This document shows positions 1 through 12,894 of a stretch of 64,000 bases of DNA, in pieces. The translations under genes and the position numbers were made by a program. The notes beneath the pieces are model-generated. The model saw only the letters and a program-made list of their open reading frames with translations. It had not been told where the DNA came from and searched no databases. Location of the stretch: contig CAWKNP010000012.1 of NCBI GenBank assembly GCA_963851105.1, positions 9,444-73,443 of the forward strand. The letters are read 5' to 3'. The stretch's first letter is position 1, and each line of letters opens with the position of its first letter. Origin of the DNA: an uncultured Actinomycetota bacterium. GTDB taxonomy: Bacteria; Actinomycetota; Acidimicrobiia; Acidimicrobiales; Palsa-688.

Positions 1-1
1 C

Positions 2-991
2 CGCCGGTCGCTCCTGCTACTCAACCTGGAACATCAGGTCCAGATCGACGAACTCCCATGGGTGAAGGCCGTCGAACCCTTCCGTCAGCGCCGTGCGGAC
101 TCAGGCGTCAAGGCCCACGACACGCTGCGCCATGCGTGCCTGCTCGCCCTCAGCTCCTTCCCCCAAACGATTCTCCCGAACCCGCTGGTCCGCGAACTGA
201 CGGCGCTCGCGAAGCAAGCAGAGGTCGAAATCCCCTTCGTCGAGGAGGTCGCCGCCGACATCTTCATGGGTAGCTTTACGCTCAAGTGGAGAAAGGCCGC
301 CGCAGTCGCCGCAGACGTCATGGCGGGAAGCCTCTACGCCCGCTACTTCGACCTGCCCCCGGCCACAGCGTGGCCGGCTATCGACGAGCGAACATCATGG
401 GTCACGGAACGGGTGAAGACCCGCTGGGGCAAGAAGACCGCCGTCGACTTCACCCAGGTCTGCAACGAACGCGCAGGTGAGGCAGCTCTCGGCGACGGCA
501 ACTTCGTCGCTCGCAACGGCACCGTGATCGAGCAGAGCCAGATCCTCACTACCCACAACCTCGCGCCTCTTGTGGACCGCCTGGCCCTCACCAGCCGCGT
601 GTCGGACTCAGGAGCCGGGTGGGCCACCGCAGCGTTCGGCTGGATCGTCAAGGAGCAGACCACCCGCTACGACTCCTGGCGTTCGCAGCTCCAGATGCTC
701 AAGAACACCGCCTACGCCTTCCGCCAGGCCCTCTTCTTCCTCTCCTTCGTCGACACCAACACCCAACGCCAGGCCATCGACGGGCTGAGGTCCCGCGCTG
801 GGTCGGAGTCTGACGAGTGGCGTGCGCGGTTCGCAGCGGTCATCGACGGGCTCGACGCTGTCCTCGACGGAGGTCAGTTCGACACCACCGGCCACGCGGG
901 CGCGACAGGGCGCCGTTTCCTCGGCTGGTCGGTTGGCCGCCACTGGCTCCTCCCGCCCGCCGAAGACGCTCGAGCTGGAGCCCGCATATGA
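2..991 (+). CDS. hypothetical protein (5' partial; frame is open to the window start)
   Basis: Long ORF in the frame starting at position 2, with no stop before the window edge. Its stop overlaps the next gene's ATG (ATGA at 988-991). No recognisable catalytic motif. Confidence 0.5.
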   Translation, partial: RRSLLLLNLEHQVQIDELPWVKAVEPFRQRRADSGVKAHDTLRHACLLALSSFPQTILPNPLVRELTALAKQAEVEIPFVEEVAADIFMGSFTLKWRKAAAVAADVMAGSLYARYFDLPPATAWPAIDERTSWVTERVKTRWGKKTAVDFTQVCNERAGEAALGDGNFVARNGTVIEQSQILTTHNLAPLVDRLALTSRVSDSGAGWATAAFGWIVKEQTTRYDSWRSQLQMLKNTAYAFRQALFFLSFVDTNTQRQAIDGLRSRAGSESDEWRARFAAVIDGLDAVLDGGQFDTTGHAGATGRRFLGWSVGRHWLLPPAEDARAGARI

Positions 992-1923
992 GCACGCGCT
1001 CACGCGACATCTTCGAGGTTCTCGCAGATTGTTGCGACCGCCAGCCAAAACTATTCCTCGACTGTCCTCCCGACCGGCTGGACCGTGAGGCACAACTTGA
1101 TTCCTCGCGACCGTTCGCGGTCGAAGCCCGAGAGTGGATGCGCGAGAACGGGGACGAGGACCCCGCTGGATGGCTGGGACGAATCGTCGTCAGCTATCTG
1201 GCGGAGGCGTCTCATCAGCTGACGGTGTTGGCGCTGCTCCTGAAGAACAGGGCGGTCCACGCGACGCTCGACCCCCTGATCCGCGCCGTTCTCGAACGGT
1301 GTGGGCGTGTCTGCTGGATCCTTGATCCTGAAGCGACCGCTTCGCAGCGCTCCGCTCGGACCCAGTTGGAACTCGGTGTCTGTGCGCACCACTACGCAGA
1401 GGCCCTGTCTCTCGTCGATGCTGCCGAGGAGACTCGGACGGAGCTTCGGCATTGGCGTGGACAACACCGAACCCGCGTCCACGCCCGATACACGGTCGAT
1501 ACCAATGGCGAGAAGAAAGACCTGTCGGCGTGGAGCGTGAACGGCGAGACCTACCCCAACTACACCGGGGCCGTGGCGTATGCGCTCGATCGGCACCCGC
1601 AATCGCCGGCCGTATACGCCGGTCTCAGCGGCTTTTCGCACCCCAACGTATTCTTCGCTCAAGAGCGCCAAGGGCAGACCGTGGTCGCGCGGAACGTCAT
1701 GGTCATGCAAATGGATGCGATCGAACGCAACTTACGGATCGCCCTGGTCTCGCACCTCGCGGCCGTCAAGAGATGGGCTACGTACTACCTAGACCAGGAT
1801 TTGGCAGACGCGGTGGTCGCGGAGGGCGACCGACTGGCCGATAAGCTCGACGAGGCATCCGTCCTTCCGGATGTGCCGACCCCTTGCAGCCCGCCAACGT
1901 CGCCTTCGTACGAGCCGTCATAG
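988..1923 (+). CDS. hypothetical protein, translationally coupled to the upstream gene
   Basis: Track ORF 817..1923. The Arg-rich N-terminal extension looks like a spurious high-GC frame. ATG at 988 (MSTRSRDIFEV...) overlaps the upstream stop. No recognised domain. Confidence 0.5.
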   Translation: MSTRSRDIFEVLADCCDRQPKLFLDCPPDRLDREAQLDSSRPFAVEAREWMRENGDEDPAGWLGRIVVSYLAEASHQLTVLALLLKNRAVHATLDPLIRAVLERCGRVCWILDPEATASQRSARTQLELGVCAHHYAEALSLVDAAEETRTELRHWRGQHRTRVHARYTVDTNGEKKDLSAWSVNGETYPNYTGAVAYALDRHPQSPAVYAGLSGFSHPNVFFAQERQGQTVVARNVMVMQMDAIERNLRIALVSHLAAVKRWATYYLDQDLADAVVAEGDRLADKLDEASVLPDVPTPCSPPTSPSYEPS

Positions 1924-2190
1924 CAGCGGTGGCGCCAGGACCCAGGAGGAGATCGAGGTGAAGCGGTGACGAACGGTTTGATTCCCCGCGCAGAGGTCGT
2001 CCTACTCGCTGACAAGAACACGCCGACACCAAATTCGCTGCGCAACGCACGATGCGCTTGAGCAAGAAGGCTATGTCCCGCCACCGTAGCGATATCACGG
2101 ATGGTCCCAGGCGCGGAAAACTCGCTGCTCACGGGAACAGGTCGGTGTCGTTCCCTCCGATAGCGTAGTTTCGCGAATTGCCGATCGTCG

Positions 2191-3141
2191 TTAATCGGTG
2201 CGGGTTACCCTTTCTGTTAGCTCCTCAGCTCGTGTTGCTGCGCTCGGCTCTACATCGTGTGGGATGGGCGGAGGCGGGGCTGTCCTAAGGCCGTGGAGCT
2301 CGGTGCAAGCCCGGTACAGGACACGCTCGAGTTCGTACGCTGTCGGGATTCCAGCGTGGCGGCGATACGTGGTGAACGATCCCGGCGCCGGCGCGTAGCA
2401 GTAGAGGCCCACTGCGTCGACCACCTGGGCCGCGGTCTCAGCCCATCGGACGACGGCTGCGAAGTCGGTGTCGCCGAGTACGCGCACGCCCATGAAGAAG
2501 TAGATGCGGGGACGGCTTCCGTGAAGCCAGGTGGACAGATCACCGCCGCCAGCTCCACCGGCAGTCGGTGCCATGCCGACCATGGTGAGCCGCCGGGCGG
2601 CTTCGCCCTTCAGGTCGATCGACTTGAAGGCCAGCTCCTTGACCCGCTTGTTCGTGTCCGCCGACCCCGCCCTTCCCGCCGCCTTCTCTCCGGGGCTATT
2701 GGCATGCTTCGGAGTGCCCATCATCTTCGCCTCGAGGAGAAACTCGATCTCACGAGTCTCGTCGCCTGGATACACGCCATCGAGGTTGTGCTCCGGGATG
2801 ATCAGACCTGGAACACGACGGCGGACGTACAGCCTTTCGATGCCCGAACAGGTCTCCAGAAGATCGGCGAGGACGTTGTTGAACCAGTCGCCCTTGCCGT
2901 TCTGGATAGCCGCACTGAGCTCCTTGCTCTGCCGCTTCTTATCCTCCTCGTTCCCTTCAAGCACGGCCGGAAGTCCACTGTCGAACAGCGACATCGCTGC
3001 CAAGAAATCCGCCTCGACCTGATTCCAACTCGTCGCTTTGCTGACGGTCAGCCGGTCGTACATCGAAAGAAGCGGCCTGCAATAGGGATTCGACAGAAGG
3101 ACTGCCTTCGGCCTTCGGGGCGCGACCGGAGGTGGCGTCAA
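2191..3141 (-). CDS. putative Type II restriction endonuclease (PD-(D/E)xK-like)
   Basis: 316-aa ORF 19 bp downstream of the methyltransferase on the same strand. Contains 'GD...ETREIEFLLEAK' spacing consistent with a PD-(D/E)xK core. Function is inferred mainly from position. Start could alternatively be M27 (3063). Confidence 0.45.
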   Translation of the reverse strand: MTPPPVAPRRPKAVLLSNPYCRPLLSMYDRLTVSKATSWNQVEADFLAAMSLFDSGLPAVLEGNEEDKKRQSKELSAAIQNGKGDWFNNVLADLLETCSGIERLYVRRRVPGLIIPEHNLDGVYPGDETREIEFLLEAKMMGTPKHANSPGEKAAGRAGSADTNKRVKELAFKSIDLKGEAARRLTMVGMAPTAGGAGGGDLSTWLHGSRPRIYFFMGVRVLGDTDFAAVVRWAETAAQVVDAVGLYCYAPAPGSFTTYRRHAGIPTAYELERVLYRACTELHGLRTAPPPPIPHDVEPSAATRAEELTERVTRTD

Positions 3142-3159
3142 CGAAGCCTCAATCGCACG

Positions 3160-4863
3160 TCACCGAAGTCGTTCAAGGTCCCGGATGCCGTAGAGCTTCC
3201 GAGCAGTAGCCGTGGCCGCTTCGACGTCCCGAGCCGAGAAGGCCGATGCCAGCGCTCGTCGATCGGACAGAGATATCGACTCGGGTACAGGGACACGGAT
3301 ACGCCGTACATACTGGGCCTGGAACCTGTAGCAGCCGCCCCGCATCTTCACGCAGTAGGCCCCGACGAAGAGGTTCGCGACATCGGACAGCAATAGGCCA
3401 CCGAGCACGTCGAGATCCCACTGATCGCTCACGACGAAGTAGAGATTGTGGTGCGGGTAGAACCGGCCATCATCGAGGACCGGGTGGGAGGCGGCCTTGA
3501 TGTCCGGCAGAACGAGCTTTGGCCGGCTCTGCAGTTCGGCATGTACGCGGTCGATGGTGCGGTACCACTGCCCAGGATTCTTCCGGGCCGTGTGCCGGCC
3601 CCGGAGCCGAGTGGCGTCGGTGGTCAGGTAGTCCCGAAGTCGTGGGTACCGGGCGAGGTCGACGAGCCCGGCGTCGTCCCACGGGTTCACCAGGTAGCCA
3701 CCTGACCAGGACGCATGGCCGTCGGTGATGTCGGTGGCCTGCAGAAGTGGAAGGAGGCGGTCACTCTCGACCAACTCTGGGTCCTTCGTGATGTATACGT
3801 CGTCGCACCCGGTCGCCACGCCGATACCCACTCTTGTGCCCGTGCGCGGATCCTCAAGCGGCGGGAACTTCGCCTCCAGTTCGGCGACGAGGGCGAGCTG
3901 GGCTGGACTGCCCGTCGGCCAGAGGTCACGACCGTCGAACCACGAATCAAGCCGTGACGCCTCGACGCTCGGCGTTGACAGCGCCAGGCGCCGCGGGCGG
4001 CGGACCCACCGGGACAACTTGTTGGCGTCCGGCTCACCGAATGCAGCCTTCGCGTCCGCCACGACCGCTCGCCGTTGCGGTCCATTGCGCAACACGACGA
4101 CGGCGGGGTAGGCCGACACGTCGTCCTCGAAGGCGTCCACGTCGTGCATGGTGAGCACCGTGTCGACCGCGAACGAGGCGGCGACTAGCGACCGCAGATC
4201 GGCGCCGTACTGGTTGCGCATCCATCGGTCGGCGCAGATGTAGCCGAGCCTTCCCTCAGAGGCGAGCAGCTCCAAGCCGAGTTCGATGAAGCCGACATAG
4301 ATATCGCTCCTCCCCCGCATCGTCGTGCACCGGCGCCGGTAAGCGTCCATGACCTCAGGGTCGACGTTCTCCAACCGGATGTAGGGCGGGTTACCGACGA
4401 CATAGTGCGCTGAGCCGGACTCATGGTGGGCCAGCAAGAAGTCGTCGGTCGTCACCCAGGCTGACGCGATGTCCACAGCTGAGACGTGGTCGAGCCCGGC
4501 ATCCTCTAGACGCTCGGAAGCGGCCTTCCGGGCCCGCTCGGCGTTGGCGTCGAGCAGGTCGAAGGCCCGGATGGCTCCTTCGAGCGAGCGGAGCCCTCGT
4601 CCGTGTCGGCGGCACGACGCGATCAGACGATCGATCGCCGGGATTAGGAACGCGCCCATCCCGCATGACGGCTCGACCAGTCGCCGGGCTGCGAGATCCT
4701 GGTCCTCGGTGTACCCGACCAGATCGAGGATCAGTTCGACGATCCAGCGACGGGTGAACACCTCGCCGTAGTCCGAGCCCGGATCTCGGGTGAGTTCAGT
4801 GAGCGTCACCGGGCGGACCTCGATAAGTGACAGTTGACGTGGGGAAACCATGGCGACGACCAC
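3160..4863 (-). CDS. N6-adenine DNA methyltransferase, gamma class (Eco57I/TaqI-like)
   Basis: Motif I 'EPSCGMGAFL' precedes motif IV 'VGNPPYIRLE' (NPPY). 567 aa, with a C-terminal region the right size for a target-recognition domain. Confidence 0.85.
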   Translation of the reverse strand: MVVAMVSPRQLSLIEVRPVTLTELTRDPGSDYGEVFTRRWIVELILDLVGYTEDQDLAARRLVEPSCGMGAFLIPAIDRLIASCRRHGRGLRSLEGAIRAFDLLDANAERARKAASERLEDAGLDHVSAVDIASAWVTTDDFLLAHHESGSAHYVVGNPPYIRLENVDPEVMDAYRRRCTTMRGRSDIYVGFIELGLELLASEGRLGYICADRWMRNQYGADLRSLVAASFAVDTVLTMHDVDAFEDDVSAYPAVVVLRNGPQRRAVVADAKAAFGEPDANKLSRWVRRPRRLALSTPSVEASRLDSWFDGRDLWPTGSPAQLALVAELEAKFPPLEDPRTGTRVGIGVATGCDDVYITKDPELVESDRLLPLLQATDITDGHASWSGGYLVNPWDDAGLVDLARYPRLRDYLTTDATRLRGRHTARKNPGQWYRTIDRVHAELQSRPKLVLPDIKAASHPVLDDGRFYPHHNLYFVVSDQWDLDVLGGLLLSDVANLFVGAYCVKMRGGCYRFQAQYVRRIRVPVPESISLSDRRALASAFSARDVEAATATARKLYGIRDLERLR

Positions 4864-5238
4864 CTACGAACGTCAGTTCGATTATAGGGCGTTCGTCGTC
4901 GATGCGGGTGGATCATCGGTCTCACGGGCACCATAACTGCCTGGTGGCCGGTGGGCCGGGGATCAGCGCGTCTTCGGCAGACGCCGGTGAAATTGTTGGA
5001 GCGGCGTAGTCAGGCTGCTGTTCGAGAGCCAGGCGGGTCCTGATTCGGCCCGTCCAGTGCCAAGTATGCCGAGGCGGTGTGACACCTCACAGACACAGAG
5101 GGTTGCAGTGAATGGCCGAAGGTCAGAGTGGACAAACGGCGAGTGAGGGGAGGCATCCGCAAGTCGGGCGTCTCGGCAGCTGCTGTTGGTCGTGTCGGGT
5201 GACGTGACGTTGGGCTCGTGGTCGCCGATGGTGATCGT

Positions 5239-5615
<377 letters not shown>

Positions 5616-5842
5616 AAATCGATGGGGGGTGGACGGCGAGCAAGCTTGGGGTCGGTCGTGGAGGGGAAGTTCGCGACAGCACATTTGCAGCTCACGCGAA
5701 ACGTGTGCTGCTAGGACACGTCGTGCCATGAACAATCATTCAGTAGCAAGTGCACCTATGTAGTGCCCGCTCCAATGTCACCGCAAATGTCACCACCGCA
5801 GCTCAGGCCCCTTTTTCGAGCGACTTTGCTGCACTCATCGAC

Positions 5843-6206
5843 GCGGCTCAGGGGCGGTCGAAGCGGCGTTGGTCCGTGGAGAGGGCGGCGACCGCCGGGC
5901 GAAATCCTTGAAATTGCTGTTTCCGTTTTGGCCCATCCGGCGCCCGCTTGTAAATGACAAGAACTATCCGGAGGTGCCCTGTGCCACCCAATCCCGTCCC
6001 CGAACACACCTGGCTCACGATCGACGAGCTGGCCGGACTGCTCCACATCACTGAGCGCCACGTTCGCCGTCTCGTTGCCGAGGATCGCATCCCGTACACG
6101 AAGGTCGGCGGCCGGCTCCGATTCAACTTGGCCCGCGTCCAGGTCTGGCTCGACCGGAATAGCCACGATCCCGAGCAGGGCGTCTGGCGTGGAAGACCGG
6201 CTTGAG
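5843..6206. repeat. Direct repeat copy 1 (xis module, ~360 bp); second copy at 11471-11806
   Basis: About 85-90% nucleotide identity between 5910-6206 and 11511-11806, including promoter/RBS and coding region. Both units end in CCGGCTTGAG and begin with CGGCT(C/T)(A/G)G. Confidence 0.85.
5981..6205 (+). CDS. xis: excisionase / MerR-like helix-turn-helix DNA-binding protein (Xis family)
   Basis: 'LTIDELAGLLHITERHVRRLVAEDRIPYTKVGGRLRF' is a typical excisionase HTH. GTG start 6 nt after GGAGG. Located 313 bp upstream of the integrase. Confidence 0.7.
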   Translation: MPPNPVPEHTWLTIDELAGLLHITERHVRRLVAEDRIPYTKVGGRLRFNLARVQVWLDRNSHDPEQGVWRGRPA

Positions 6207-6517
6207 CCGCTGCGCCTCTTCGACCTCGACCTTCCTCGGCCGGTCAAGTCTCAAATCGAGACACCGAGATGCCCGTCCCAAATCGAGACGCCACCGCCAC
6301 TGTCTGAGATTGAGACGGACGATCCCGAGGTCGAAGACTCGACCAGCCAGCTGCGGATGGTGGCCGAAGTCGCCACAATGGTGGTGAACGCGCACGACCG
6401 ACTCGAGGCTGCGATCAAGGCAGCCCGGAGGGCCGGCTTCAGTTGGCGTGAGATCGGGATCGCTGCAGGCGACCCCCACCAGACCCTTCATCGCCGGCAC
6501 CGGCAAGGAGGAAGAGT

Positions 6518-7660
6518 ATGACTTCACGTCGTCGATTCGGTCGGATCCGAAGGCTGCCATCAGGACGATGGCAGGCCCGCTATCCAGATGGGTCTGGCGA
6601 TGATGTGCCGGCGCCGGAGACGTTCGCCTCGAAGGGGGACGCGGCCCGATGGCTCGTCATGGTCGAGGCCGACATGGCTCGCGGCCAGTACGTCGATCCT
6701 CGGGCGGGGCGGATCACGTTCGGCGAGTGGGCCAAGGAGTGGCTCGGTCGTCCCGGCAAGCGGGCCAACTCGATCGCTCGGGATCGCCAAGGCCTCGACG
6801 CGTTCACGCCGCACCTCGGCTTCCGCCCATTGGCTTCCATCACCCCCATGCACGTCCAGGCTGCCGTCGACGAGCGTGGCCGCCACTGCTCCCCGGCGAC
6901 CCTCGCTCGCGACGTCGCCGCCGTCCGAGCCGTCTTCAACGCCGCGGTAGACGCAGACCTGATCGCACGGTCGCCTGCAAGGAAGGTCGCCCTCCCGAAG
7001 GTTCGGCCTCCGGAGCGGACGCCGCTGACCGCCGAGGAGCTTCTCCGCCTGGCCGACGCAATCGTCGGCCGGTACCGGGCGCTGGTGCTCGTTGGAGGCG
7101 TCCTGGGGCTTCGATGGGGCGAGGCGATCGCGCTCAGGCTCTGCGACGCCGACTTCATGCGCCGGACCGTCAGAGTCGCCCAGACGGTCGAGGAAGTCGC
7201 CGGCCAGGTCCAGGTGGTCCCTGGCCAGGCGAAGACCGCCGGCAGTCTGAGGACGATCACGGCGCCACCGTTCCTAATCGACGAGCTGGCTCGTCATCTC
7301 GCCGCGTACAGGTCGGGCGCCGACCGAGGGGAACTGGTCTTCGTCGGACCGAGAGGAGGCATCCTCCGGCGCCGCTTCGGAGAGCGAACGTTCCGGCCTG
7401 CGGTGCAACGAGCCGGGCTCGACCCGTCGCTCACCTTCCAGGCACTCCGCCATGTCGCCATGACGGCCCTGGTCGATGAGAACGTGCATCCGAGAGTGAT
7501 GCAGGGCCGGGCCGGGCACGCCAGTTCCCGGCTGACGATGGAGCTCTACTCCCGCGTCAGCGACGGTGCCGACCGGGAGGCCGCGATGGCCCTTGAGAAC
7601 CGGTTCCGACCGGCATTGTCCGATGGGAACGGGCACGGAACGGGCACGGAGCCCTCCTGA
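6518..7660 (+). CDS. int: tyrosine-type site-specific integrase (phage integrase family)
   Basis: N-terminal 'RLPSGRWQARY' AP2-like DNA-binding motif. C-terminal 'LRHVAMTAL...GHASSRLTMELYSRV' gives the R...HxxR...Y catalytic pattern. Confidence 0.9.
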   Translation: MTSRRRFGRIRRLPSGRWQARYPDGSGDDVPAPETFASKGDAARWLVMVEADMARGQYVDPRAGRITFGEWAKEWLGRPGKRANSIARDRQGLDAFTPHLGFRPLASITPMHVQAAVDERGRHCSPATLARDVAAVRAVFNAAVDADLIARSPARKVALPKVRPPERTPLTAEELLRLADAIVGRYRALVLVGGVLGLRWGEAIALRLCDADFMRRTVRVAQTVEEVAGQVQVVPGQAKTAGSLRTITAPPFLIDELARHLAAYRSGADRGELVFVGPRGGILRRRFGERTFRPAVQRAGLDPSLTFQALRHVAMTALVDENVHPRVMQGRAGHASSRLTMELYSRVSDGADREAAMALENRFRPALSDGNGHGTGTEPS

Positions 7661-7711
7661 GGGACGTCGTTCGACCGTAAAACAGCAGGTCAGCGGGCAT
7701 GCACGCCTCCA

Positions 7712-7762
7712 AGACAACAGCACTGATAATGCTGAGGTCGATGGTTCGAGTCCATCTAGCCC
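7712..7762 (+). other. tRNA 3' fragment (anticodon arm with GAT anticodon + T-arm + acceptor 3' strand), Ile-like; probable att site remnant
   Basis: CAGCA-CTGATAA-TGCTG anticodon stem-loop. GATGG-TTCGAGT-CCATC T-arm. TAGCCCC acceptor strand followed by discriminator A. No matching 5' acceptor or D-arm upstream. Confidence 0.5.
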
Positions 7763-7848
7763 CACTGCCTGGACCGGTAAAAGCGCTGGTCAGGGCGGGT
7801 GCGGGGCGTAACCGGGAGTTACCGGTAGTCGGTTCGTTGGTCTTGCTT

Positions 7849-8502
7849 CTAGGTGCCGAGTCCCTGGTCGCGGGCTCGGCGGATGGCTTCGGTGCGATCG
7901 TCGACGCCGAGTTTGGTGAAGATGTTGCTGACGTGGTTGCGGACGGTCTTGGGCCGGATGCCAAGCCTGCGGGCGATAACGGGGTTGGGTTCGCCTCGGG
8001 CCATGAGGTCGAGGATTTCTCGTTCGCGTTCGGTCATGTGGGCAAACGCCCGTGGGGTCCCGCCGGTTTTGGTGCTGAGCAGGGCAGGTAGCCGGGCGGC
8101 CATCTGACCAGTGAAGACGGCTTCGCCTTCGAGGACGGTTTGGATTGCGTGGAGGAGTTCGGAGGGCTGGGATCCTTTGAGGATGTAACCGCGGGCACCG
8201 GCTTGGAGGGCGTCGACAAGTGAGGCGTCGTCGTCGGCCATGGTGAGCATCAAGATGGCGGGAGCGGGTTGGTGCCTCATGATCTCTCTGGTGGCGGCGA
8301 CGCCGTCCATCTCGGGCAGGTAGAGGTCCATGACGATGACGTCGGGTTGCGTGTCGGCCGCGATGCTCACTGCTTGGCGTCCGTCGCCGGCCTCTCCGAC
8401 GACATCGAAGCCGGGTGTGGATTGGAGCAAGGCTCGTAGACCGGATCGGACGACGGGATGGTCGTCGACGATGAGCACCCGGACGGGATACTCAGGTGTC
8501 AT
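7849..8502 (-). CDS. NarL/LuxR-family response regulator
   Basis: Receiver domain 'VRVLIVDDHPVVRSGL...VIVMDLYLPEMDG' plus C-terminal LuxR HTH 'LTEREREILDLMARGEPNPVIARRLGIRPKTVRNHVSNIFTKLGV'. Start ATG overlaps the kinase stop (ATGACACCTGA). Confidence 0.9.
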   Translation of the reverse strand: MTPEYPVRVLIVDDHPVVRSGLRALLQSTPGFDVVGEAGDGRQAVSIAADTQPDVIVMDLYLPEMDGVAATREIMRHQPAPAILMLTMADDDASLVDALQAGARGYILKGSQPSELLHAIQTVLEGEAVFTGQMAARLPALLSTKTGGTPRAFAHMTEREREILDLMARGEPNPVIARRLGIRPKTVRNHVSNIFTKLGVDDRTEAIRRARDQGLGT

Positions 8503-10642
8503 GGCCGTCGCGGGGGAGGGTGGCGGCGACGATGGTGCCGCCCCGGGGGTCACGGGTGATAGTGCAGGTGCCACCTAGTTCGATGGCTCGTTGATGCATG
8601 GTGGCTAGACCTCCTCCGGGACGATGCCCGTCGCCGAGCCCGATGCCGTCATCGGTGACCTCGATTCTCACGGCGTCGTCGGTGGCGTCGATTCGCACGG
8701 TGACGTGTTTGGGTTTGGCGTGGCGGGCGGCGTTAGTAACAGCCTCGGTGGCGATGCGATAGGCGGCGAGCTCCAACGGGGCCGGGAGCATGTCGAATCG
8801 ACCGCTGGTGCGCACGTCGGCTTCGAACCCGGCCGCGCCAGCCAGGGCTGCGGCTTGGCGGTCGACGGCGGCACCGAGTCCGAGTTCGGCCAATGCCGGT
8901 GGGCGCAACTCCTGCACCATGCGGCGAACGTCGCCGATGGCGTCGCGTACTTGGCCGCCCAGCTCGCCGAGCAGCTGTTCGGCGGGCGGGTGGCCCCGCA
9001 CCTGGTTGCGGGCTGCTTCCAAGCCGAACGACACCCCGGTGAGCAGGGGGCCGAGACCGTCGTGTAGTTCGCTCCAGATCCGCCGGCGTTCCTGCTCGCG
9101 CACCGCGGCGAGACGATCCCGCGACTCCTCGAGCTCGACGGCGAGGCGGGCCGAGGCGATGACCGCGGCGGCGTGGCGCGCCAAGTCGAGCAAGAGGCGC
9201 TGCTCGCGCCCCCGGAGTCGTTGCCCGCGATCAGCGGACACGGCCAGGCGACCGACGGTCTGGTCTCGGTGGACTAGTTCGGCCTCGAACACCTCGCTGC
9301 CCGCTTGGCCGCGTGCCGCCACCAGGTCCGGCTGGCCCGGGCGGGGAACGCTCAAAGCCACGTACGGCAGTCGCAGGGCTTTGGCGACCCCGTCGACAAC
9401 GGCGGCGACAACCTGGGCGGGGGGGATCTGGCCCTCGAGACGCAACGCCAAGCTGGCCAGCGCCTGGTAAGGCTCATCGCGCTGTCCGTACACCAGTCGA
9501 TTGGCGGTCCGTTGCAGCCGGTCCCGCAATGGTGCAAGGCACACCGCCACCAGCACTGCCGCGGCGAGCGACGGTACGGCGCCCGCCAGCAGGGTTCCGG
9601 CGGCGGCCACCGTGGCGGCGTAGATTCCTGCCAGGGAGAGGATGAGCGTCCCGTAGGTGAGGGAGCGGCTTACGACCAAGTCGATGTCGTAGAGCCGAAA
9701 ACGGGAGACGGCCACGGCGATGGCCAACGGCACCAGCAGCGTCCATGGGACCAAGATGACGGTGTCGAGCCACGGGCGGTAAGGGGATACGGCCTGGACG
9801 AGGGCCGCCGCCGCCGAGACGGCGGCGCACATCCCCACCGACCACAGGACCCAGGCCAGCTGGGTCCGCTCGGTGGGGTCGCCTCGGCGCCACCGAACGA
9901 CGAGGGCCCCGATGCCACCGACAACCACGATCGCCACCAGGAGCATGGCCACGGGAAACAGCACCGCCAGCGACGCGAGGGCGTGGATGCCGATCGGGTT
10001 GGTCAGCGCATGTCCCTTCGCATCGCAATTGCAGACGCCCCTGACGGCCCATGGGATCAGGGCGGTCACTGCGAAAAAGACCGAGGCAATGGCGGCAACG
10101 GCCATGAGCGGCCACCAACGGCGTCCCGGAAGGCGGCCGTCGGGGAACAATGCCACCACGGCGGCCAACGCCACGAACGACTGGGTGAAGCAAATGCTGA
10201 TGAGCACCCCCAACCAGGCCGCGGTCACGTCGCCGGGAGCCACCAGGTGGGGGTCAGGTTGTACGGCGCCGGTAACGAACTGAGCCAGGCCGCCGATGAG
10301 GAGGAGCCAACCGACTGGTCCCCCGCGGCGGCGGCCAGTCAAGAACATTCCTACGATTGGGAGGGAAAGGACGCGCAGTGCCCCTAACGGGTTCGTGTGG
10401 TTCACGGGCCACGACAGCAGCGGGGGCAGCGCCAGTGCGGCCAGGACGATCGCCGCCCCGAGCGCTGGGCCCAGCCAGGCGGTCGGGCGGAGGCCCCCGC
10501 CAGCGACCGATGCTGCTGGGGCGTCCTCCACGGGACCAGTTTGTAGCGGCATCTCGGGTGATGCCACCGGCAGCTGTTGATTGACTTGGGGAGCGCGGCT
10601 GGTGCGGCGGGGCTGACTACTGAGATCAGGGTTGGACGGCAT
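8492..10642 (-). CDS. sensor histidine kinase with polytopic N-terminal membrane domain, HisKA_3 + HATPase_c
   Basis: Ten or more hydrophobic segments. 'ERRRIWSELHDGLGPLL' H-box of HisKA_3 type. 'TEAVTNAARHAKPKHVTVRI...EVTDDGIGL' ATPase N and G boxes. Confidence 0.85.
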   Translation of the reverse strand: MPSNPDLSSQPRRTSRAPQVNQQLPVASPEMPLQTGPVEDAPAASVAGGGLRPTAWLGPALGAAIVLAALALPPLLSWPVNHTNPLGALRVLSLPIVGMFLTGRRRGGPVGWLLLIGGLAQFVTGAVQPDPHLVAPGDVTAAWLGVLISICFTQSFVALAAVVALFPDGRLPGRRWWPLMAVAAIASVFFAVTALIPWAVRGVCNCDAKGHALTNPIGIHALASLAVLFPVAMLLVAIVVVGGIGALVVRWRRGDPTERTQLAWVLWSVGMCAAVSAAAALVQAVSPYRPWLDTVILVPWTLLVPLAIAVAVSRFRLYDIDLVVSRSLTYGTLILSLAGIYAATVAAAGTLLAGAVPSLAAAVLVAVCLAPLRDRLQRTANRLVYGQRDEPYQALASLALRLEGQIPPAQVVAAVVDGVAKALRLPYVALSVPRPGQPDLVAARGQAGSEVFEAELVHRDQTVGRLAVSADRGQRLRGREQRLLLDLARHAAAVIASARLAVELEESRDRLAAVREQERRRIWSELHDGLGPLLTGVSFGLEAARNQVRGHPPAEQLLGELGGQVRDAIGDVRRMVQELRPPALAELGLGAAVDRQAAALAGAAGFEADVRTSGRFDMLPAPLELAAYRIATEAVTNAARHAKPKHVTVRIDATDDAVRIEVTDDGIGLGDGHRPGGGLATMHQRAIELGGTCTITRDPRGGTIVAATLPRDGHDT

Positions 10643-10739
10643 GTCACCCCTTCCTGTATCTGAGCCATCCGATCGGAGCCGTCGGTGAACGCGGCTTCAC
10701 CGGGCCAGTTATGTCGCGGCCCGGCGAAGCCGCGATCGG

Positions 10740-11240
10740 CTACGCGGAGAACGAAACCGGGCCACCACCCCGGGTGACCGCGAGGAAAGCGATAGGTGCG
10801 TCGCTGCAGCCGTTTGGGGTGCGGGCACCGACGGCGAATCCACTGAAGTGGTACGAGCCGTTGCCGCTGATTCCAGCGTAGGCGCCGGTGCCGTTGCTGA
10901 TTACGTAGGTGCCGGTGCCGCTGAAACGACTAACGCAGGTGACGCTATTGAACGTCCCGGAGGGACCGGGATTGTCAGTGTGGATCAGCGTCACAGTCCC
11001 GTTCGGGAAGGTGAGGGTCCCTTGACCGGTGGGGCCATTGCTCGGCTGCTCCACGTCGGTGCCGACAGCAGAGAAGGCGCCGTTGGCAATGACCGGGCCG
11101 CGACCGGCGTTGCTGGTCAAGATGATCGTGAACCGCTCGGTGCCCCCAGAGGGCTGTGCCGAGGCTTTGCCAGCCAACCCTGTCAGGGCCACCACGCCGG
11201 TGAGCAACACCGTCGCCATCGCAGTAGTGAACTTCTTCAT
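10740..11240 (-). CDS. secreted hypothetical protein (signal peptide)
   Basis: 'MKKFTTAMATVLLTGVVALTGLAGKASA' signal peptide with AGGAG 6 nt upstream. Gly/Thr/Ser-rich mature domain. First gene of a three-gene minus-strand unit with the kinase and regulator. Confidence 0.6.
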   Translation of the reverse strand: MKKFTTAMATVLLTGVVALTGLAGKASAQPSGGTERFTIILTSNAGRGPVIANGAFSAVGTDVEQPSNGPTGQGTLTFPNGTVTLIHTDNPGPSGTFNSVTCVSRFSGTGTYVISNGTGAYAGISGNGSYHFSGFAVGARTPNGCSDAPIAFLAVTRGGGPVSFSA

Positions 11241-11575
11241 ATGTCGCTCCTGTCTCCAACGATTTGGGTGCGGTGCTTGCCGCTTGGATGATCCCGGGCG
11301 TTTCCCACCGCTTCTGTCTGGGCCTTGTGCCCTCCGTCAGAGTGAAGCCACCGGTGTCCCGTTGTCATGGGGCCAGGTCCCGGCCAGCCGGGCAATTTGT
11401 CCTAGGACTCATGGCCTGCTTACTCACGACCTCGAACCGTGAATATGGGGGGCGGCATCTGAGCGCAGAATCGGCTTGAGCGGCGGGGCGCGACCGCGCC
11501 GCGAAAATTTGAAATTCCGGTTTCCGTTTTGGCCCATCGGGCGCCCGCTTGTAGATGACAAGAATTATCCGGAGG

Positions 11576-11805
11576 TGCCCTATGCCACCCAGTCCCGTTC
11601 CCGACACACCTGGCTCACGCTGGGCGAGCTGGCCGGACCGCTCCAGATCACCGAGCGCCATGTCCGCCGTCTCGTTTCTGAGAATCGCATCCCGTACCCG
11701 AAGGTCCGCGGCCGGCTCCGCTTCAACCTGGCCAGAGTCCAGGCGTGGCTCGACCGGAATAGCCACGATCCCGACCAGAGCGTCTGGCGTGGAAGACCGG
11801 CTTGA
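11576..11805 (+). pseudogene. second excisionase-like copy (xis paralog), N-terminus frame-disrupted relative to copy 1
   Basis: The HTH 'LTLGELAGPLQITERHVRRLVSENRIPYPKVRGRLRF' is conserved. A 1-nt deletion relative to copy 1 (GACACACC vs GAACACACC) puts the ATG in another frame. In-frame GTG sits directly against the GGAGG with no spacer. Confidence 0.5.
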
Positions 11806-11952
11806 GGGCGTTGTGGCGAACCGGAAGTTACCGGTGGTACCCCCTACGGGCACGACCCCTGGGCCGGACCACCTCCGGTTACGGACCGCCGGCAGATAGC
11901 CGCGTTCGACGCACGGCTGGGCCCATCAATGTGCCCGCCGAGGGTCGCCGCG

Positions 11953-12894
11953 TCACACCGGCAGCTGGGTGGGTATCGCGGGTGATTCGGCGCTCCTGCC
12001 GCGCCGAGCCCCGAATGCGTCGGCTCCGAGAACCGCCAGCGCGATCCACACCAGTGAGAAACCCGCCAGGCGGGCCGGTGGGAGCGTCTCGCCCAGGACC
12101 AACACACCGCACAACAACTGGCCGGTGGGGGTCAGGTACTGCAACAGCCCCAGCATCGACAACGGGATCCGGCGGGCCGCGGAAGCAAACAGGAGCAGCG
12201 GTACCGCGGTGACGATTCCGAGGGCGGCCAGCCCCAGATCTCGACCGATTGAGCCGTGGCCGAAGGCGGCAGTGCCTTGCACCTCGGCCAAGACGAGGGC
12301 GATGAAGGCGAAGGGGGCGAGCAACGCGGTCTCGACCGCGAGCGACGGGGCCGAGCCGATGGTCACCGCGTTCTTCTGGAATCCGTACCCGGCGAAGCTG
12401 ACCGCCAGGACCAGAGCAATCCATGGCGGCCGGCCGAAGCTCACCGTCAATACCGCCACTGATGCTGCTCCGAAACCAAGCGCGACCAGCTGCAACGATC
12501 GAAGACGCTCCTTGAGAACAAGTACGCCAAGGGCCACCGTCAGCAGCGGGTTCACGTAGTAGCCCAGTGCCGCCTCCACGACATGGCCATGATTGACCGC
12601 CCAGATGTAGAGGAGCCAGTTGCAGGCGATCAGCACGCTGGCGATAGCAAGGCGGCCCATCTGGCGGCGGTCGGCAAGCACTGGCCGTAGCCAACCGCGA
12701 GGACCTCGCCAGGCCAGGATGACGAGTACGACCAGAAACGACCACAGGATCCGGTGCAGCAGTATCTCGACGGCACCAACGGCCTGGAGGCGGTGGAATA
12801 CCAGTGGGAACAATCCCCACAATGAGTAGGCCGCCACCCCGGACAGAACACCCGCCCGATCGGCTCTGACATCGGTGGTGGGCGCGGCGGTCAC
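11953..12894 (-). CDS. rarD: RarD-type EamA/DMT family permease
   Basis: Ten-helix pattern with 'AYSLWGLFPLVF', typical of RarD/EamA. Confidence 0.8.
   Translation of the reverse strand: MTAAPTTDVRADRAGVLSGVAAYSLWGLFPLVFHRLQAVGAVEILLHRILWSFLVVLVILAWRGPRGWLRPVLADRRQMGRLAIASVLIACNWLLYIWAVNHGHVVEAALGYYVNPLLTVALGVLVLKERLRSLQLVALGFGAASVAVLTVSFGRPPWIALVLAVSFAGYGFQKNAVTIGSAPSLAVETALLAPFAFIALVLAEVQGTAAFGHGSIGRDLGLAALGIVTAVPLLLFASAARRIPLSMLGLLQYLTPTGQLLCGVLVLGETLPPARLAGFSLVWIALAVLGADAFGARRGRSAESPAIPTQLPV

What the first reader, a model, noticed from the sequence alone, without database searches (positions are those of the whole stretch)
5843..11806. Duplicated xis module as ~360-bp direct repeats bracketing an integrase, a two-component system and a secreted-protein cassette
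Copy 1 (5843-6206) and copy 2 (11471-11806) share about 85-90% identity, including the GGAGG and start region, and lie exactly 5.6 kb apart. Each unit begins with CGGCT(C/T)(A/G)G and ends with CCGGCTTGAG. Between them are int, a tRNA 3' fragment, a NarL-type RR/HK pair and a secreted protein. This looks like either two adjacent integrative elements that have decayed or a segment primed for recombination between the repeats, which would delete the two-component system and int together. Copy 2 carries a 1-nt indel that breaks its start context.
Basis: seen in the sequence. Interest (0 to 1): 0.6.

Follow-up and report, generated by a model that had tools for sequence, protein, structure and literature searches.

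The report
Relic excisionase beside an integrative element
The ~325-bp direct repeat is real: its second copy is the dead front end of an older xis-int recombination module lying next to an intact one, which is the ordinary pile-up and decay of integrative elements at a tRNA gene.

Summary
The repeat is confirmed: window 5883-6212 and 11486-11812, 324 nt, 88.6% identical, one 1-nt indel, 5600 nt apart.

Copy 1 is the start of an intact xis-orf110-int operon. It ends in a 48-nt tRNA-Ile(GAT) 3' fragment, the att core at 7718-7765. Many metagenomic relatives carry the same three-gene module. Two of them are bounded by an intact tRNA-Ile on one side and this core on the other.

Copy 2 is a pseudogene:
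- It has a frameshift at codon 8.
- Three near-invariant residues are replaced.
- No orf110 or int follows it.
- It is joined directly to the distal part of the flank that normally follows the att core.

So module 2 was once complete and lost about 1.6 kb.

The two copies are no closer to each other than to elements from other samples (all pairs 86-88%). They therefore reflect two separate acquisitions, not a recent duplication.

The response regulator, kinase and secreted-protein genes form a block that is also conserved elsewhere. Here the block lies between the att of element A and the xis relic, so it is most simply cargo of the decayed element B.

Recombination between the repeats is possible but weakly primed: the longest identical run is 29 nt.

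This is a known kind of structure in an undescribed Acidimicrobiia element family.

The parts
4963..5735 (-). Divergently transcribed low-complexity ORF upstream of xis1, containing hexamer arrays at 5237-5609. It belongs to element A.
   Evidence: ORF list. TRF arrays. Homology to L085 starts at 5211 and to L001 at 5575. The N-terminus MARRVLAA is shared with the gene upstream of L002 xis-a.
5736..5882 (+). Distal upstream region of xis1, with a tandem AATGTCACC pair at 5774-5794. It is not part of the repeat.
   Evidence: Conserved in L001 and L002 copy a. The motif pair is unique in the window; the other three hits lie in coding sequence.
5883..6212 (+). Repeat copy 1: proximal upstream region, xis1, and the first 8 codons of orf110.
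5981..6205 (+). xis1: 74-aa HTH_17 excisionase-family protein with a GTG start.
   Evidence: Pfam HTH_17, E 4e-12. PHROG excisionase families. 37 homologues, most of them exactly 74 aa.
6189..6521 (+). orf110: small conserved gene that overlaps the xis stop by 17 nt and the int start by 4 nt. Its C-terminal part is a RelI/ClpC2-type HTH.
   Evidence: Found between xis and int in L001, L085, L086, L089, L091-L093, L097, L099, L104 and L105. Alignment A7. PDB 9sdc RelI, E 4e-9. No Pfam family.
6518..7660 (+). int: tyrosine recombinase, 380 aa.
   Evidence: Pfam Phage_integrase, Phage_int_M and SAM_1. phrog_1, E 1e-59. 96% amino-acid identity to L001 and L085, with differences mostly at third codon positions.
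7661..7717 (+). int-side arm of the att site. It contains the motif AAAACAGCAGGTCAGCGGG and a pseudo-tRNA 5' part.
   Evidence: Conserved in L001, L003, L086 and L123. Rfam tRNA scores 29.7 bits over 7695-7764, but ARAGORN makes no call.
7718..7765 (+). att core: 48 nt equal to the tRNA-Ile(GAT) anticodon stem through the 3' end.
   Evidence: Alignment with the intact tRNA-Ile of L003. L003 and L123 carry this core both in an intact tRNA-Ile and after int, 9.5 and 10.5 kb apart. It is the only copy in the window.
7766..7835 (+). Post-core flank no. 1: arm-like motif AAAGCGCTGGTCAGGGCGGG and hairpin AACCGGGAGTTACCGGT.
   Evidence: Homology to L001 and L085 ends at 7829-7835. It resembles the flank after the intact tRNA in L003 (z 3.5) but not the L003 flank after int (z -0.6).
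7840..11408 (-). Three-gene block: response regulator (7849-8574), HisKA_3 sensor kinase (8492-10642) and a 166-aa secreted-type protein (10740-11240). Inferred to be cargo of the decayed element B.
   Evidence: Pfam. The block is 77-79% identical in nucleotides to L165 and L166, with sharp ends at 7840/7848 and 11408. Relatives have the same gene order.
11486..11812 (+). Repeat copy 2: proximal upstream region, xis2, and the first 8 codons of orf110.
11582..11805 (+). xis2 pseudogene. ATG at 11582, 1-nt deletion after 11604 (codon 8), and the HTH frame ends at TGA 11803-11805.
   Evidence: Alignments. The HTH frame has no start codon after the shift. Lineage-specific changes are 7 non-synonymous to 1 synonymous, including L20P, T40P and G43R at near-invariant columns.
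11813..11850 (+). Post-core flank no. 2, distal part only, fused directly to xis2. It marks a deletion of about 1.6 kb covering orf110, int, the arm and the core.
   Evidence: 7810-7829 against 11819-11838 matches 18/20 (family D16). These are the only 2 hits in 64 kb, against 0.03 expected. The pattern taken from 11820-11842 hits only L001 2249 and L085 3375, each about 45 nt after that locus's att core, among 166 loci. Alignment A6.
11953..12894 (-). EamA/RarD-type transporter gene. It is the first gene to the right of the relic.
   Evidence: Pfam EamA. Relatives are Acidimicrobiales MAGs at no more than 79% amino-acid identity.

Best explanation
The window holds two related tyrosine-recombinase integrative elements of one family, side by side and in the same orientation. 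They target the 3' half of tRNA-Ile(GAT).

Element A runs from off-window on the left to about 7835. It carries a restriction-modification system as cargo and an intact xis1-orf110-int operon ending in the att core.

Element B runs from about 7766 to about 11850. It carries the response regulator, kinase and secreted-protein block as cargo. Its recombination module has been destroyed by three kinds of damage:
- A deletion of about 1.6 kb, between the end of xis (GTGGAAGACCGGCTTGAG) and a similar arm-like motif just past the att core, removed orf110, int and the core.
- xis2 has a frameshift.
- xis2 has replacements at conserved residues.

The ~325-bp 'direct repeat' is therefore the shared front end (promoter-proximal region plus xis) of two independently acquired homologous modules. 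It is not a duplication made in this genome.

Consequences:
- B can no longer excise, so its cargo is fixed in the chromosome.
- A may still excise, by Int and Xis acting on a tRNA-Ile attL (not in the window) and the att at 7718-7765.
- RecA-type recombination between the two xis copies could delete int, att and the cargo block, but it is disfavoured by the divergence.

What is shown: the repeat, the gene content, the pseudogene state of xis2, the fused att-flank fragment, the star-like relationship of the copies, and the tRNA-Ile-bounded architecture in relatives.

What is inferred: tandem site-specific integration (accretion), the cargo status of the two-component block, and the activity of element A.
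For: - The repeat is real and includes non-coding DNA.
- xis-orf110-int is the canonical module in at least 11 related loci.
- L003 and L123 show an intact tRNA-Ile, then cargo, then xis-int and a 48-nt core repeat, 9.5 and 10.5 kb apart.
- xis2 is frameshifted and has L20P, T40P and G43R. Its lineage-specific changes are 7 non-synonymous to 1 synonymous, against 5:5, 5:5 and 2:6 in the other three lineages.
- The 38 nt after xis2 are homologous to the distal post-core flank of the window, L001 and L085 (family D16).
- Copy 1, copy 2, L001 and L085 are equidistant at 86-88%, with informative sites split 2/3/2. xis2 is slightly closer to L085 (91.0%) than to xis1 (89.6%).
- Homology to other elements stops at about 7835, and homology to the L165/L166 block runs 7840-11408. 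The window is a clean mosaic of module A, cargo block and module-B relic.
- Partial copies of the same module beside a full one recur in L002 (590 nt) and L087 (330 nt).
- L001 has a fragment of the window's 316-aa restriction-modification-linked ORF about 900 nt after its att.
- Tandem accretion followed by decay is documented for actinomycete and other integrative elements (PMC9513070; PMC5704250).
Against: - No intact tRNA-Ile and no second att core are in the window. Neither the left end of A nor the right att of B is seen directly.
- In L165 the homologous three-gene block sits among housekeeping genes with no xis or int within 9 kb. The block could therefore be plain chromosome rather than cargo.
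- No related genome with conserved synteny was found. Even brkB is not next to rarD in relatives, so no empty site exists for comparison.
- Whether the post-core flanks derive from the element or from the chromosome could not be settled.
- The frameshift rests on one base in a metagenome-assembled contig and could be an assembly error.
Confidence: 0.62

Rival explanations
1. Campbell-type homologous integration. A 5.6-kb circular element (xis-orf110-int-attP plus the two-component cargo) recombined through its xis region, by RecA, with the xis of a resident, already truncated relative. It did not use Int and att. The two repeats would be the hybrid recombination joints, and recombination between them would regenerate the circle.
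For: - The unit between the repeats, exactly 5600 nt, contains every part of a minimal element: xis, orf110, int, both arm motifs and the core.
- The att next to int is followed by a flank resembling the one found after the intact tRNA in L003, which gives it an attP-like look.
- The truncated module-2 end, fused to an att flank, would be the resident relic.
Against: - It needs the same number of events as accretion, plus a pre-existing relic.
- Only 29 nt of uninterrupted identity is available for RecA.
- The DNA left of copy 1 and right of copy 1 is contiguous, at similar identity, in L001 and L085. Copy 1 therefore looks like an undisturbed native module.
- The attP-like reading of the flank is weak: z 3.5 in one comparison and nothing for L123.
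Confidence: 0.15
2. xis2 is a live, domesticated stand-alone HTH regulator, or a spare excisionase acting in trans on element A. The apparent frameshift would be an assembly error.
For: - The upstream region, GGAGG and start codon are conserved.
- The HTH frame is open to the normal stop.
- The contig comes from a metagenome assembly (sources).
Against: - Three near-invariant residues are replaced, two of them by proline within or beside helices.
- Lineage-specific changes are 7 non-synonymous to 1 synonymous.
- Third-position bias is lost: differences by codon position are 8/3/10.
- None of the rarD-linked relatives fetched carries a xis homologue next to rarD.
Confidence: 0.08
3. Copy 2 arose in this genome by segmental duplication of copy 1 and then diverged.
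For: - The copies are in direct orientation and lie close together.
- Both keep the same stretch, from the upstream region to 7 nt past the xis stop.
Against: - Copy 2 is no closer to copy 1 (87.2%) than to L085 (86.3%) or L001 (85.7%). Copy 1 is just as close to those two.
- Only 2 sites unite copy 1 with copy 2, against 3 and 2 for the other two groupings.
- Copy 2 has its own att-flank fragment. That fragment matches L001 and L085 about 10 nt further than the window's own flank no. 1 does.
Confidence: 0.05
4. The arrangement is an assembly chimera, or the similarity is due to chance.
For: The source is a metagenome-assembled contig. The source record itself could not be fetched.
Against: - E 4e-115.
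- Repeats diverged by 12% do not cause assembly collapse.
- The mosaic boundaries coincide with gene and module boundaries seen in independent contigs.
Confidence: 0.02

Closest known systems
Tandem accretion and decay of integrative elements at tRNA hot spots (ICESt1/CIME in Streptococcus thermophilus; AICE/DAICE arrays in Streptomyces; PMC5704250, PMC9513070)
   Same: - Two related elements with the same integration specificity lie side by side.
- The element farther from the presumed tRNA has decayed and lost its integrase.
- Cargo is retained.
- Related genomes show remnants of the same kind.
   Different: - Only one complete att copy is visible here.
- The decayed element has also lost its right att core, so it is not a cis-mobilizable element (CIME).
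- No conjugation or replication genes are seen in either element.
- The host is an Acidimicrobiia-type actinobacterium, where such elements have not been described, as far as the papers searched show.
pSAM2/pMR2-type actinomycete integrative elements (xis-int-attP module). The best annotated match is Micromonospora rosaria plasmid NC_006910.1.
   Same: - A small excisionase-family HTH gene lies immediately upstream of a tyrosine integrase.
- attP lies just downstream of int and is identical to the 3' part of a tRNA gene.
- The Int of NC_006910.1 is 34.6% identical over 95% of the length, and an 'excisionase family DNA-binding protein' is annotated beside it.
   Different: - Int identity is only about 35%.
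- An extra conserved gene (orf110, RelI/ClpC2-type HTH) sits between xis and int.
- The target is tRNA-Ile(GAT).
- No Rep, TraB/FtsK or Nudix-type genes were detected in the 7.8 kb visible.
Mycobacteriophage and actinophage tyrosine integrase plus HTH_17 Xis cassettes (L5-like)
   Same: Integrase fold, an HTH_17 excisionase, and att sites overlapping a tRNA gene. There are 284 phage records with weak Int matches, mostly Mycobacterium phages.
   Different: - Identity is below 33%.
- No phage structural genes are nearby.
- The gene order xis-orf110-int, with overlapping reading frames, is specific to this family.
RelI antitoxin of M. tuberculosis (Rv2664, PDB 9sdc) / ClpC2 N-terminal HTH family. 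This applies to orf110 only.
   Same: The C-terminal 67 residues of orf110 align with RelI residues 10-75 at E 4e-9. The family is actinomycete-specific (PMC13284704).
   Different: - No RelS (RelE/ParE-like) toxin gene lies next to it. Its partner genes are xis and int.
- The N-terminal 36 residues are unrelated.

Membership tests
tRNA-targeting tyrosine-recombinase integrative element (genomic island / IME-like) | Encodes a tyrosine recombinase | tested here: met
   Pfam Phage_integrase E 2.5e-15 plus N-terminal and central domains. phrog_1 E 1e-59.
tRNA-targeting tyrosine-recombinase integrative element (genomic island / IME-like) | att site identical to the 3' part of a tRNA gene, next to int | tested here: met
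   The 48-nt match to tRNA-Ile(GAT) at 7718-7765 begins 58 nt after the int stop.
tRNA-targeting tyrosine-recombinase integrative element (genomic island / IME-like) | Element bounded by direct att repeats: an intact tRNA at one end and a partial copy at the other | tested here: inconclusive
   Met in relatives L003 and L123. In the window only one core is present and no tRNA-Ile. The left end lies outside the window.
tRNA-targeting tyrosine-recombinase integrative element (genomic island / IME-like) | Excises as a circle and re-integrates | not testable with these tools
   Needs reads or PCR.
AICE (actinomycete integrative and conjugative element, pSAM2 type) | Carries FtsK/TraB-type transfer and Rep replication genes | tested here: not met
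   There are no such domains in the ORFs of 1-7700 or 7766-11850. The part of element A left of the window is unseen.
Tandem accretion array | Two or more elements of the same att specificity, adjacent and in the same orientation | tested here: met
   Two homologous xis-led modules lie in direct orientation 5.6 kb apart, and each ends in the same kind of post-core flank.
Tandem accretion array | att repeats at both outer ends and at the internal junction | tested here: inconclusive
   The internal junction att is present (7718-7765). At the right outer site, the core is deleted and only the distal flank is left. The left outer site is off-window.
CIME (cis-mobilizable decayed element) | Has lost int but keeps both attL and attR | tested here: not met
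   Element B lacks a right att core.
Excisionase / recombination directionality factor (HTH_17, MerR-like) | Small HTH_17 protein encoded immediately upstream of int | tested here: met
   Met for xis1: 74 aa, HTH_17 E 4e-12, in an operon with int. xis2 has the domain in a broken frame and no int.
Excisionase / recombination directionality factor (HTH_17, MerR-like) | Stimulates attL x attR recombination by its integrase | not testable with these tools
   Requires an assay.
RelS-RelI toxin-antitoxin (orf110) | RelI-like protein encoded next to a RelE/ParE-like RelS toxin | tested here: not met
   orf110 matches RelI. Its neighbours, however, are an HTH_17 protein and an integrase.

The most novel reading that the evidence does not exclude
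Partial copies of this module's front end beside a full module may not be random decay.

The pattern recurs in three unrelated assemblies:
- The window: upstream region plus xis.
- L002: upstream region, xis and half of orf110.
- L087: upstream region only.

In the window, the deletion junction falls between the xis end and a similar arm-like GGTCAG motif of the att site.

The novel reading is that elements of this family regularly recombine through the xis region or arm-like motifs. The mechanism could be homology-driven Campbell insertion of small int-attP circles, or Int acting on pseudo-sites. The result would be capture and fixation of cargo such as the two-component block, leaving xis relics as scars.
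Probability: 0.12. Interest if true: 0.5.

Novelty: new member of a known kind. Interest (0 to 1): 0.25.

Why it matters
The finding gives a clean, dissected example of how an integrative element becomes fixed. One short-homology deletion removes int and att, and a two-component sensing cassette is left as permanent chromosome.

It also defines a previously undescribed xis-orf110-int element family that targets tRNA-Ile in Acidimicrobiia-type actinobacteria, which are known mostly from metagenomes.

For annotation, it warns that the second 'excisionase' here is a pseudogene, and that the tRNA-like hit at 7695-7764 is an att site rather than a gene.

It does not open a new mechanism. Accretion and decay of integrative elements are well documented.

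Tried and rejected
- **Source contig.** Exact look-ups of Int, RarD and the 100%-identical kinase P0038 found no record. The DNA left of the window, where tRNA-Ile is expected, could not be read.
- **Empty-site search through RarD.** 80 loci were fetched, the best at 77-79% amino-acid identity, all Acidimicrobiales MAGs. None shares any neighbour with the window, not even brkB. No ancestral or empty state could be defined.
- **Second att core or tRNA-Ile in the window.** None found with up to 3 mismatches.
- **Element-derived versus chromosomal post-core flank.** The window flank resembles the L003 attL flank (z 3.5) and not its attR flank (z -0.6). L123 gives nothing, no native tRNA-Ile locus was among the fetched loci, and by eye the L003 attR flank also shows faint similarity. 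I treat this as unresolved.
- **Sigma-70 promoter and terminator scans of both copies.** No sites found.
- **Other AATGTCACC occurrences** (27668, 37859, 57078). All lie in coding sequence and were judged chance.
- **L002 element boundary.** A search for a tRNA-Glu att repeat found none. The tRNA-like fragment at L002 ~7575 is from a different, degenerate tRNA.
- **Further module relics.** blastn-short of 11807-11960, 11241-11490 and 7766-7850 against all loci found none at E 0.05 or better. The att-flank fragment was found only by pattern search and alignment.
- **PDB sequence search with the Xis family profile.** No hit.
- **xis-orf110 as a RelS-RelI-like toxin-antitoxin pair.** Rejected, because RelS is a RelE/ParE-like RNase and xis is an HTH_17 protein.

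Full report
**Observation.** The repeat is real.
- The repeat finder reports two gapless blocks: 5908-6003/11509-11604 (92%) and 6004-6206/11604-11806 (90%). They are offset by one base, so there is a single 1-nt indel.
- blastn joins them into 5883-6206 against 11486-11806: 324 nt, 88.6% identity, E 4e-115.
- The similarity covers about 95 nt of non-coding DNA, the GGAGG, the start codon, the whole 74-codon frame and 7 nt beyond the stop. It then ends abruptly at ...GACCGGCTTGAG.
- The genes listed between the copies are all there. ARAGORN finds no tRNA in the region.
- The 48 nt at 7718-7765 are identical in register to the anticodon stem through the 3' end of tRNA-Ile(GAT). Rfam's tRNA model scores the site at 29.7 bits. 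It is a pseudo-tRNA, that is, an att site.

**What copy 1 belongs to.**
- xis1 starts at GTG 5981 and encodes a 74-aa HTH_17 protein. A search of 5.8 billion proteins returns only 37 relatives, most of them exactly 74 aa and called excisionase-family by JGI.
- A 110-codon gene (6189-6521) overlaps the xis stop by 17 nt and the int start by 4 nt.
- The order xis-orf110-int is found in L001, L085, L086, L089, L091-L093, L097, L099, L104 and L105. More distant relatives have xis-int.
- Int is a tyrosine recombinase. It is 96% identical in protein and 92-93% identical in DNA to L001 and L085, with about 80% of differences at third codon positions. It is therefore under purifying selection.
- In L003 and L123 an intact tRNA-Ile(GAT) lies 9.5 and 10.5 kb upstream of xis-int, and the 48-nt core is repeated just after int.
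- The family thus consists of integrative elements that insert into tRNA-Ile, with xis-(orf110)-int-att at their right end and variable cargo.
- In the window, the cargo to the left includes an Eco57I-type methyltransferase and an adjacent 316-aa ORF. The left end of the element is outside the window: there is no tRNA-Ile, no second core, and no second hairpin motif to the left.

**What copy 2 is.**
- xis2 keeps the RBS and an ATG (11582) but lacks one base at codon 8. The HTH frame that follows has no start codon of its own.
- Compared with xis1, L001 and L085, its lineage-specific changes are 7 non-synonymous to 1 synonymous, against 5:5, 5:5 and 2:6 for the others. They include L20P, T40P and G43R at columns that are invariant or nearly so in 29 family members.
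- No orf110 or int follows. Instead, the 38 nt right after the repeat (11813-11850) are homologous to the distal part of the flank that follows the att core:
  - AACCGGAAGTTACCGGTGGT matches 7810-7829 at 18/20 (family D16). These are the only two such sites in 64 kb, against 0.03 expected.
  - The pattern taken from 11820-11842 occurs, among 166 fetched loci, only in L001 and L085, about 45 nt after the att core in each (alignment).
- Module 2 was therefore once a complete xis-orf110-int-att unit. It lost about 1.6 kb between the xis end (GTGGAAGACCGGCTTGAG) and the similar arm-like motif (GTGAAAGCGCTGGTCAG) just beyond the core. This is a short-homology deletion that removed exactly the parts needed for mobility.

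**Relationship of the two copies.**
- In a four-way alignment, copy 1, copy 2, L001 and L085 are mutually 85.7-87.8% identical.
- Parsimony-informative sites split 2 (c1+c2), 3 (c1+L001) and 2 (c1+L085). Singletons are 12, 18, 14 and 15.
- In the coding part, xis2 is 91.0% identical to L085 and 89.6% to xis1.
- So the copies are not products of a duplication in this genome, and there is no sign of gene conversion between them. They are two family members acquired separately.

**What lies between.**
- Homology of the window to other elements stops at 7829-7835.
- From 7840/7848 to 11408 the window is 77-79% identical to two contigs (L165, L166). Both carry the same secreted-protein, kinase and regulator block.
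- The block is a discrete unit seen in three different neighbourhoods. In L165 it sits among housekeeping genes, with no xis or int nearby.
- In the window it lies exactly between the att of element A and the xis relic. That is where the cargo of a second element would lie if it were inserted in the same orientation at the same site.
- The pattern expected from tandem accretion is: newest element next to the tRNA, older element pushed outward and decaying. It fits, and it is documented in Streptomyces and streptococci (PMC9513070; PMC5704250).
- Independent support that this family piles up and leaves front-end relics:
  - L002 has a 590-nt, ~88% direct repeat (upstream region, xis and 60 codons of orf110) 2.9 kb from a full copy.
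  - L087 repeats 330 nt of its xis upstream region in front of a patatin gene.
  - L001 has a piece of the window's 316-aa ORF about 900 nt past its att.

**Limits.**
- The accretion order, the cargo status of the two-component block and the activity of element A are inferences.
- The source contig could not be fetched.
- Relatives found through RarD are too distant to share any synteny.
- I could not decide whether the post-core flanks derive from the element or the chromosome. This leaves room for a rival: a 5.6-kb int-attP circle entering by homologous recombination at xis.
- The frameshift is one base in a metagenome assembly.

**Recombination potential.** The copies are direct, so a crossover would delete orf110, int, att and the cassette, or release them as a 5.6-kb circle. 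However, the longest uninterrupted identity is 29 nt, followed by 27 and 16. From general knowledge of RecA-dependent recombination and mismatch-repair barriers, 11-13% divergence strongly lowers the rate. 'Primed' overstates it.

**Comparison with known systems.**
- The best annotated relative of Int is the integrase of the 11-kb Micromonospora rosaria plasmid NC_006910.1, at 34.6% identity, with an annotated excisionase beside it.
- Phage integrases match at below 33% identity.
- The module works like the pSAM2/L5-type xis-int-attP cassette. It differs by the inserted orf110, whose C-terminal part is a RelI/ClpC2-type HTH (PDB 9sdc, E 4e-9) with no RelS toxin partner.
- No conjugation or replication genes were seen, so it is not shown to be an AICE.

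**Verdict.** This is an ordinary, well-understood kind of structure in a little-studied lineage. The refinements are a second copy that is a pseudogene, independent origin of the two copies, the deletion junction, and the extra gene.

Noticed in passing
window 6189-6521 (+): orf110 is a conserved 110-codon gene wedged between xis and int, overlapping both. It has no Pfam or PHROG family. Its C-terminal 67 residues match the M. tuberculosis RelI antitoxin (PDB 9sdc, E 4e-9), a ClpC2-type HTH family specific to actinomycetes. No RelS-like toxin is adjacent. It may be a second directionality or regulatory factor.
   Followed up: partly
window 7680-7696, 7783-7799, 6186-6206 and 5845-5860: A GGTCAG-centred motif (AAAnCnGCnGGTCAGnGGG) occurs in direct orientation on both sides of the att core. 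Weaker look-alikes sit at the xis end and about 135 nt upstream of xis1. The motif is conserved in L001, L003, L086 and L123. These are candidate Int arm-type sites, and the module-2 deletion junction lies at one of them.
   Followed up: partly
window 5774-5794: A tandem pair AATGTCACC-N3-AATGTCACC lies in the distal xis1 upstream region. It is conserved in L001 and in L002 copy a, and absent from copy 2. It is a likely operator for an unknown regulator.
   Followed up: partly
window 5237-5609 (ORF 4963-5735, - strand): Dense hexamer arrays, (GTGGCG)13 and (GGTGGT/GGTCGT)~40, fill a divergently transcribed ORF. Depending on frame they give poly-Pro, poly-Thr or His-Asp runs. The ORF's N-terminus MARRVLAA is conserved upstream of xis in L002, where 50-nt tandem repeats occur instead. 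This is a hypervariable low-complexity gene linked to the module.
   Followed up: no
window 2191-4863 (- strand): An Eco57I/TaqI-type N6-adenine methyltransferase (567 aa) lies next to an adjacent 316-aa ORF with no known family. This is probably a restriction-modification or defence cargo of element A. A 100-nt fragment of the 316-aa ORF (86% identity) lies about 900 nt after the att of L001. GC content is lowest here, at 0.61-0.63.
   Followed up: partly
window 7695-7764: Rfam's tRNA model passes its gathering score here (29.7 against 29 bits), but ARAGORN makes no call. The 5' half does not form an acceptor or D arm. It is an attP-type pseudo-tRNA that automatic annotation could miscall.
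   Followed up: yes
L002 6893-7485 vs 9810-10405; L087 897-1228 vs 3389-3710: Two unrelated assemblies carry their own ~88-93% direct repeats of parts of the same xis module. In L002 the full copy leads a TrwC relaxase-helicase operon of an element integrated at tRNA-Glu with a different integrase. The xis-orf110 pair is therefore shared between int-led and relaxase-led modules.
   Followed up: partly
window 7840-11408; L165 8810-12265; L166 3661-7604: The secreted 166-aa protein, the multi-pass HisKA_3 kinase and the GerE regulator travel as one block with sharp homology ends in three different genomic neighbourhoods. The small secreted protein has no known family and is always divergently placed upstream of the kinase. 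It may be the ligand or partner of the sensor.
   Followed up: no
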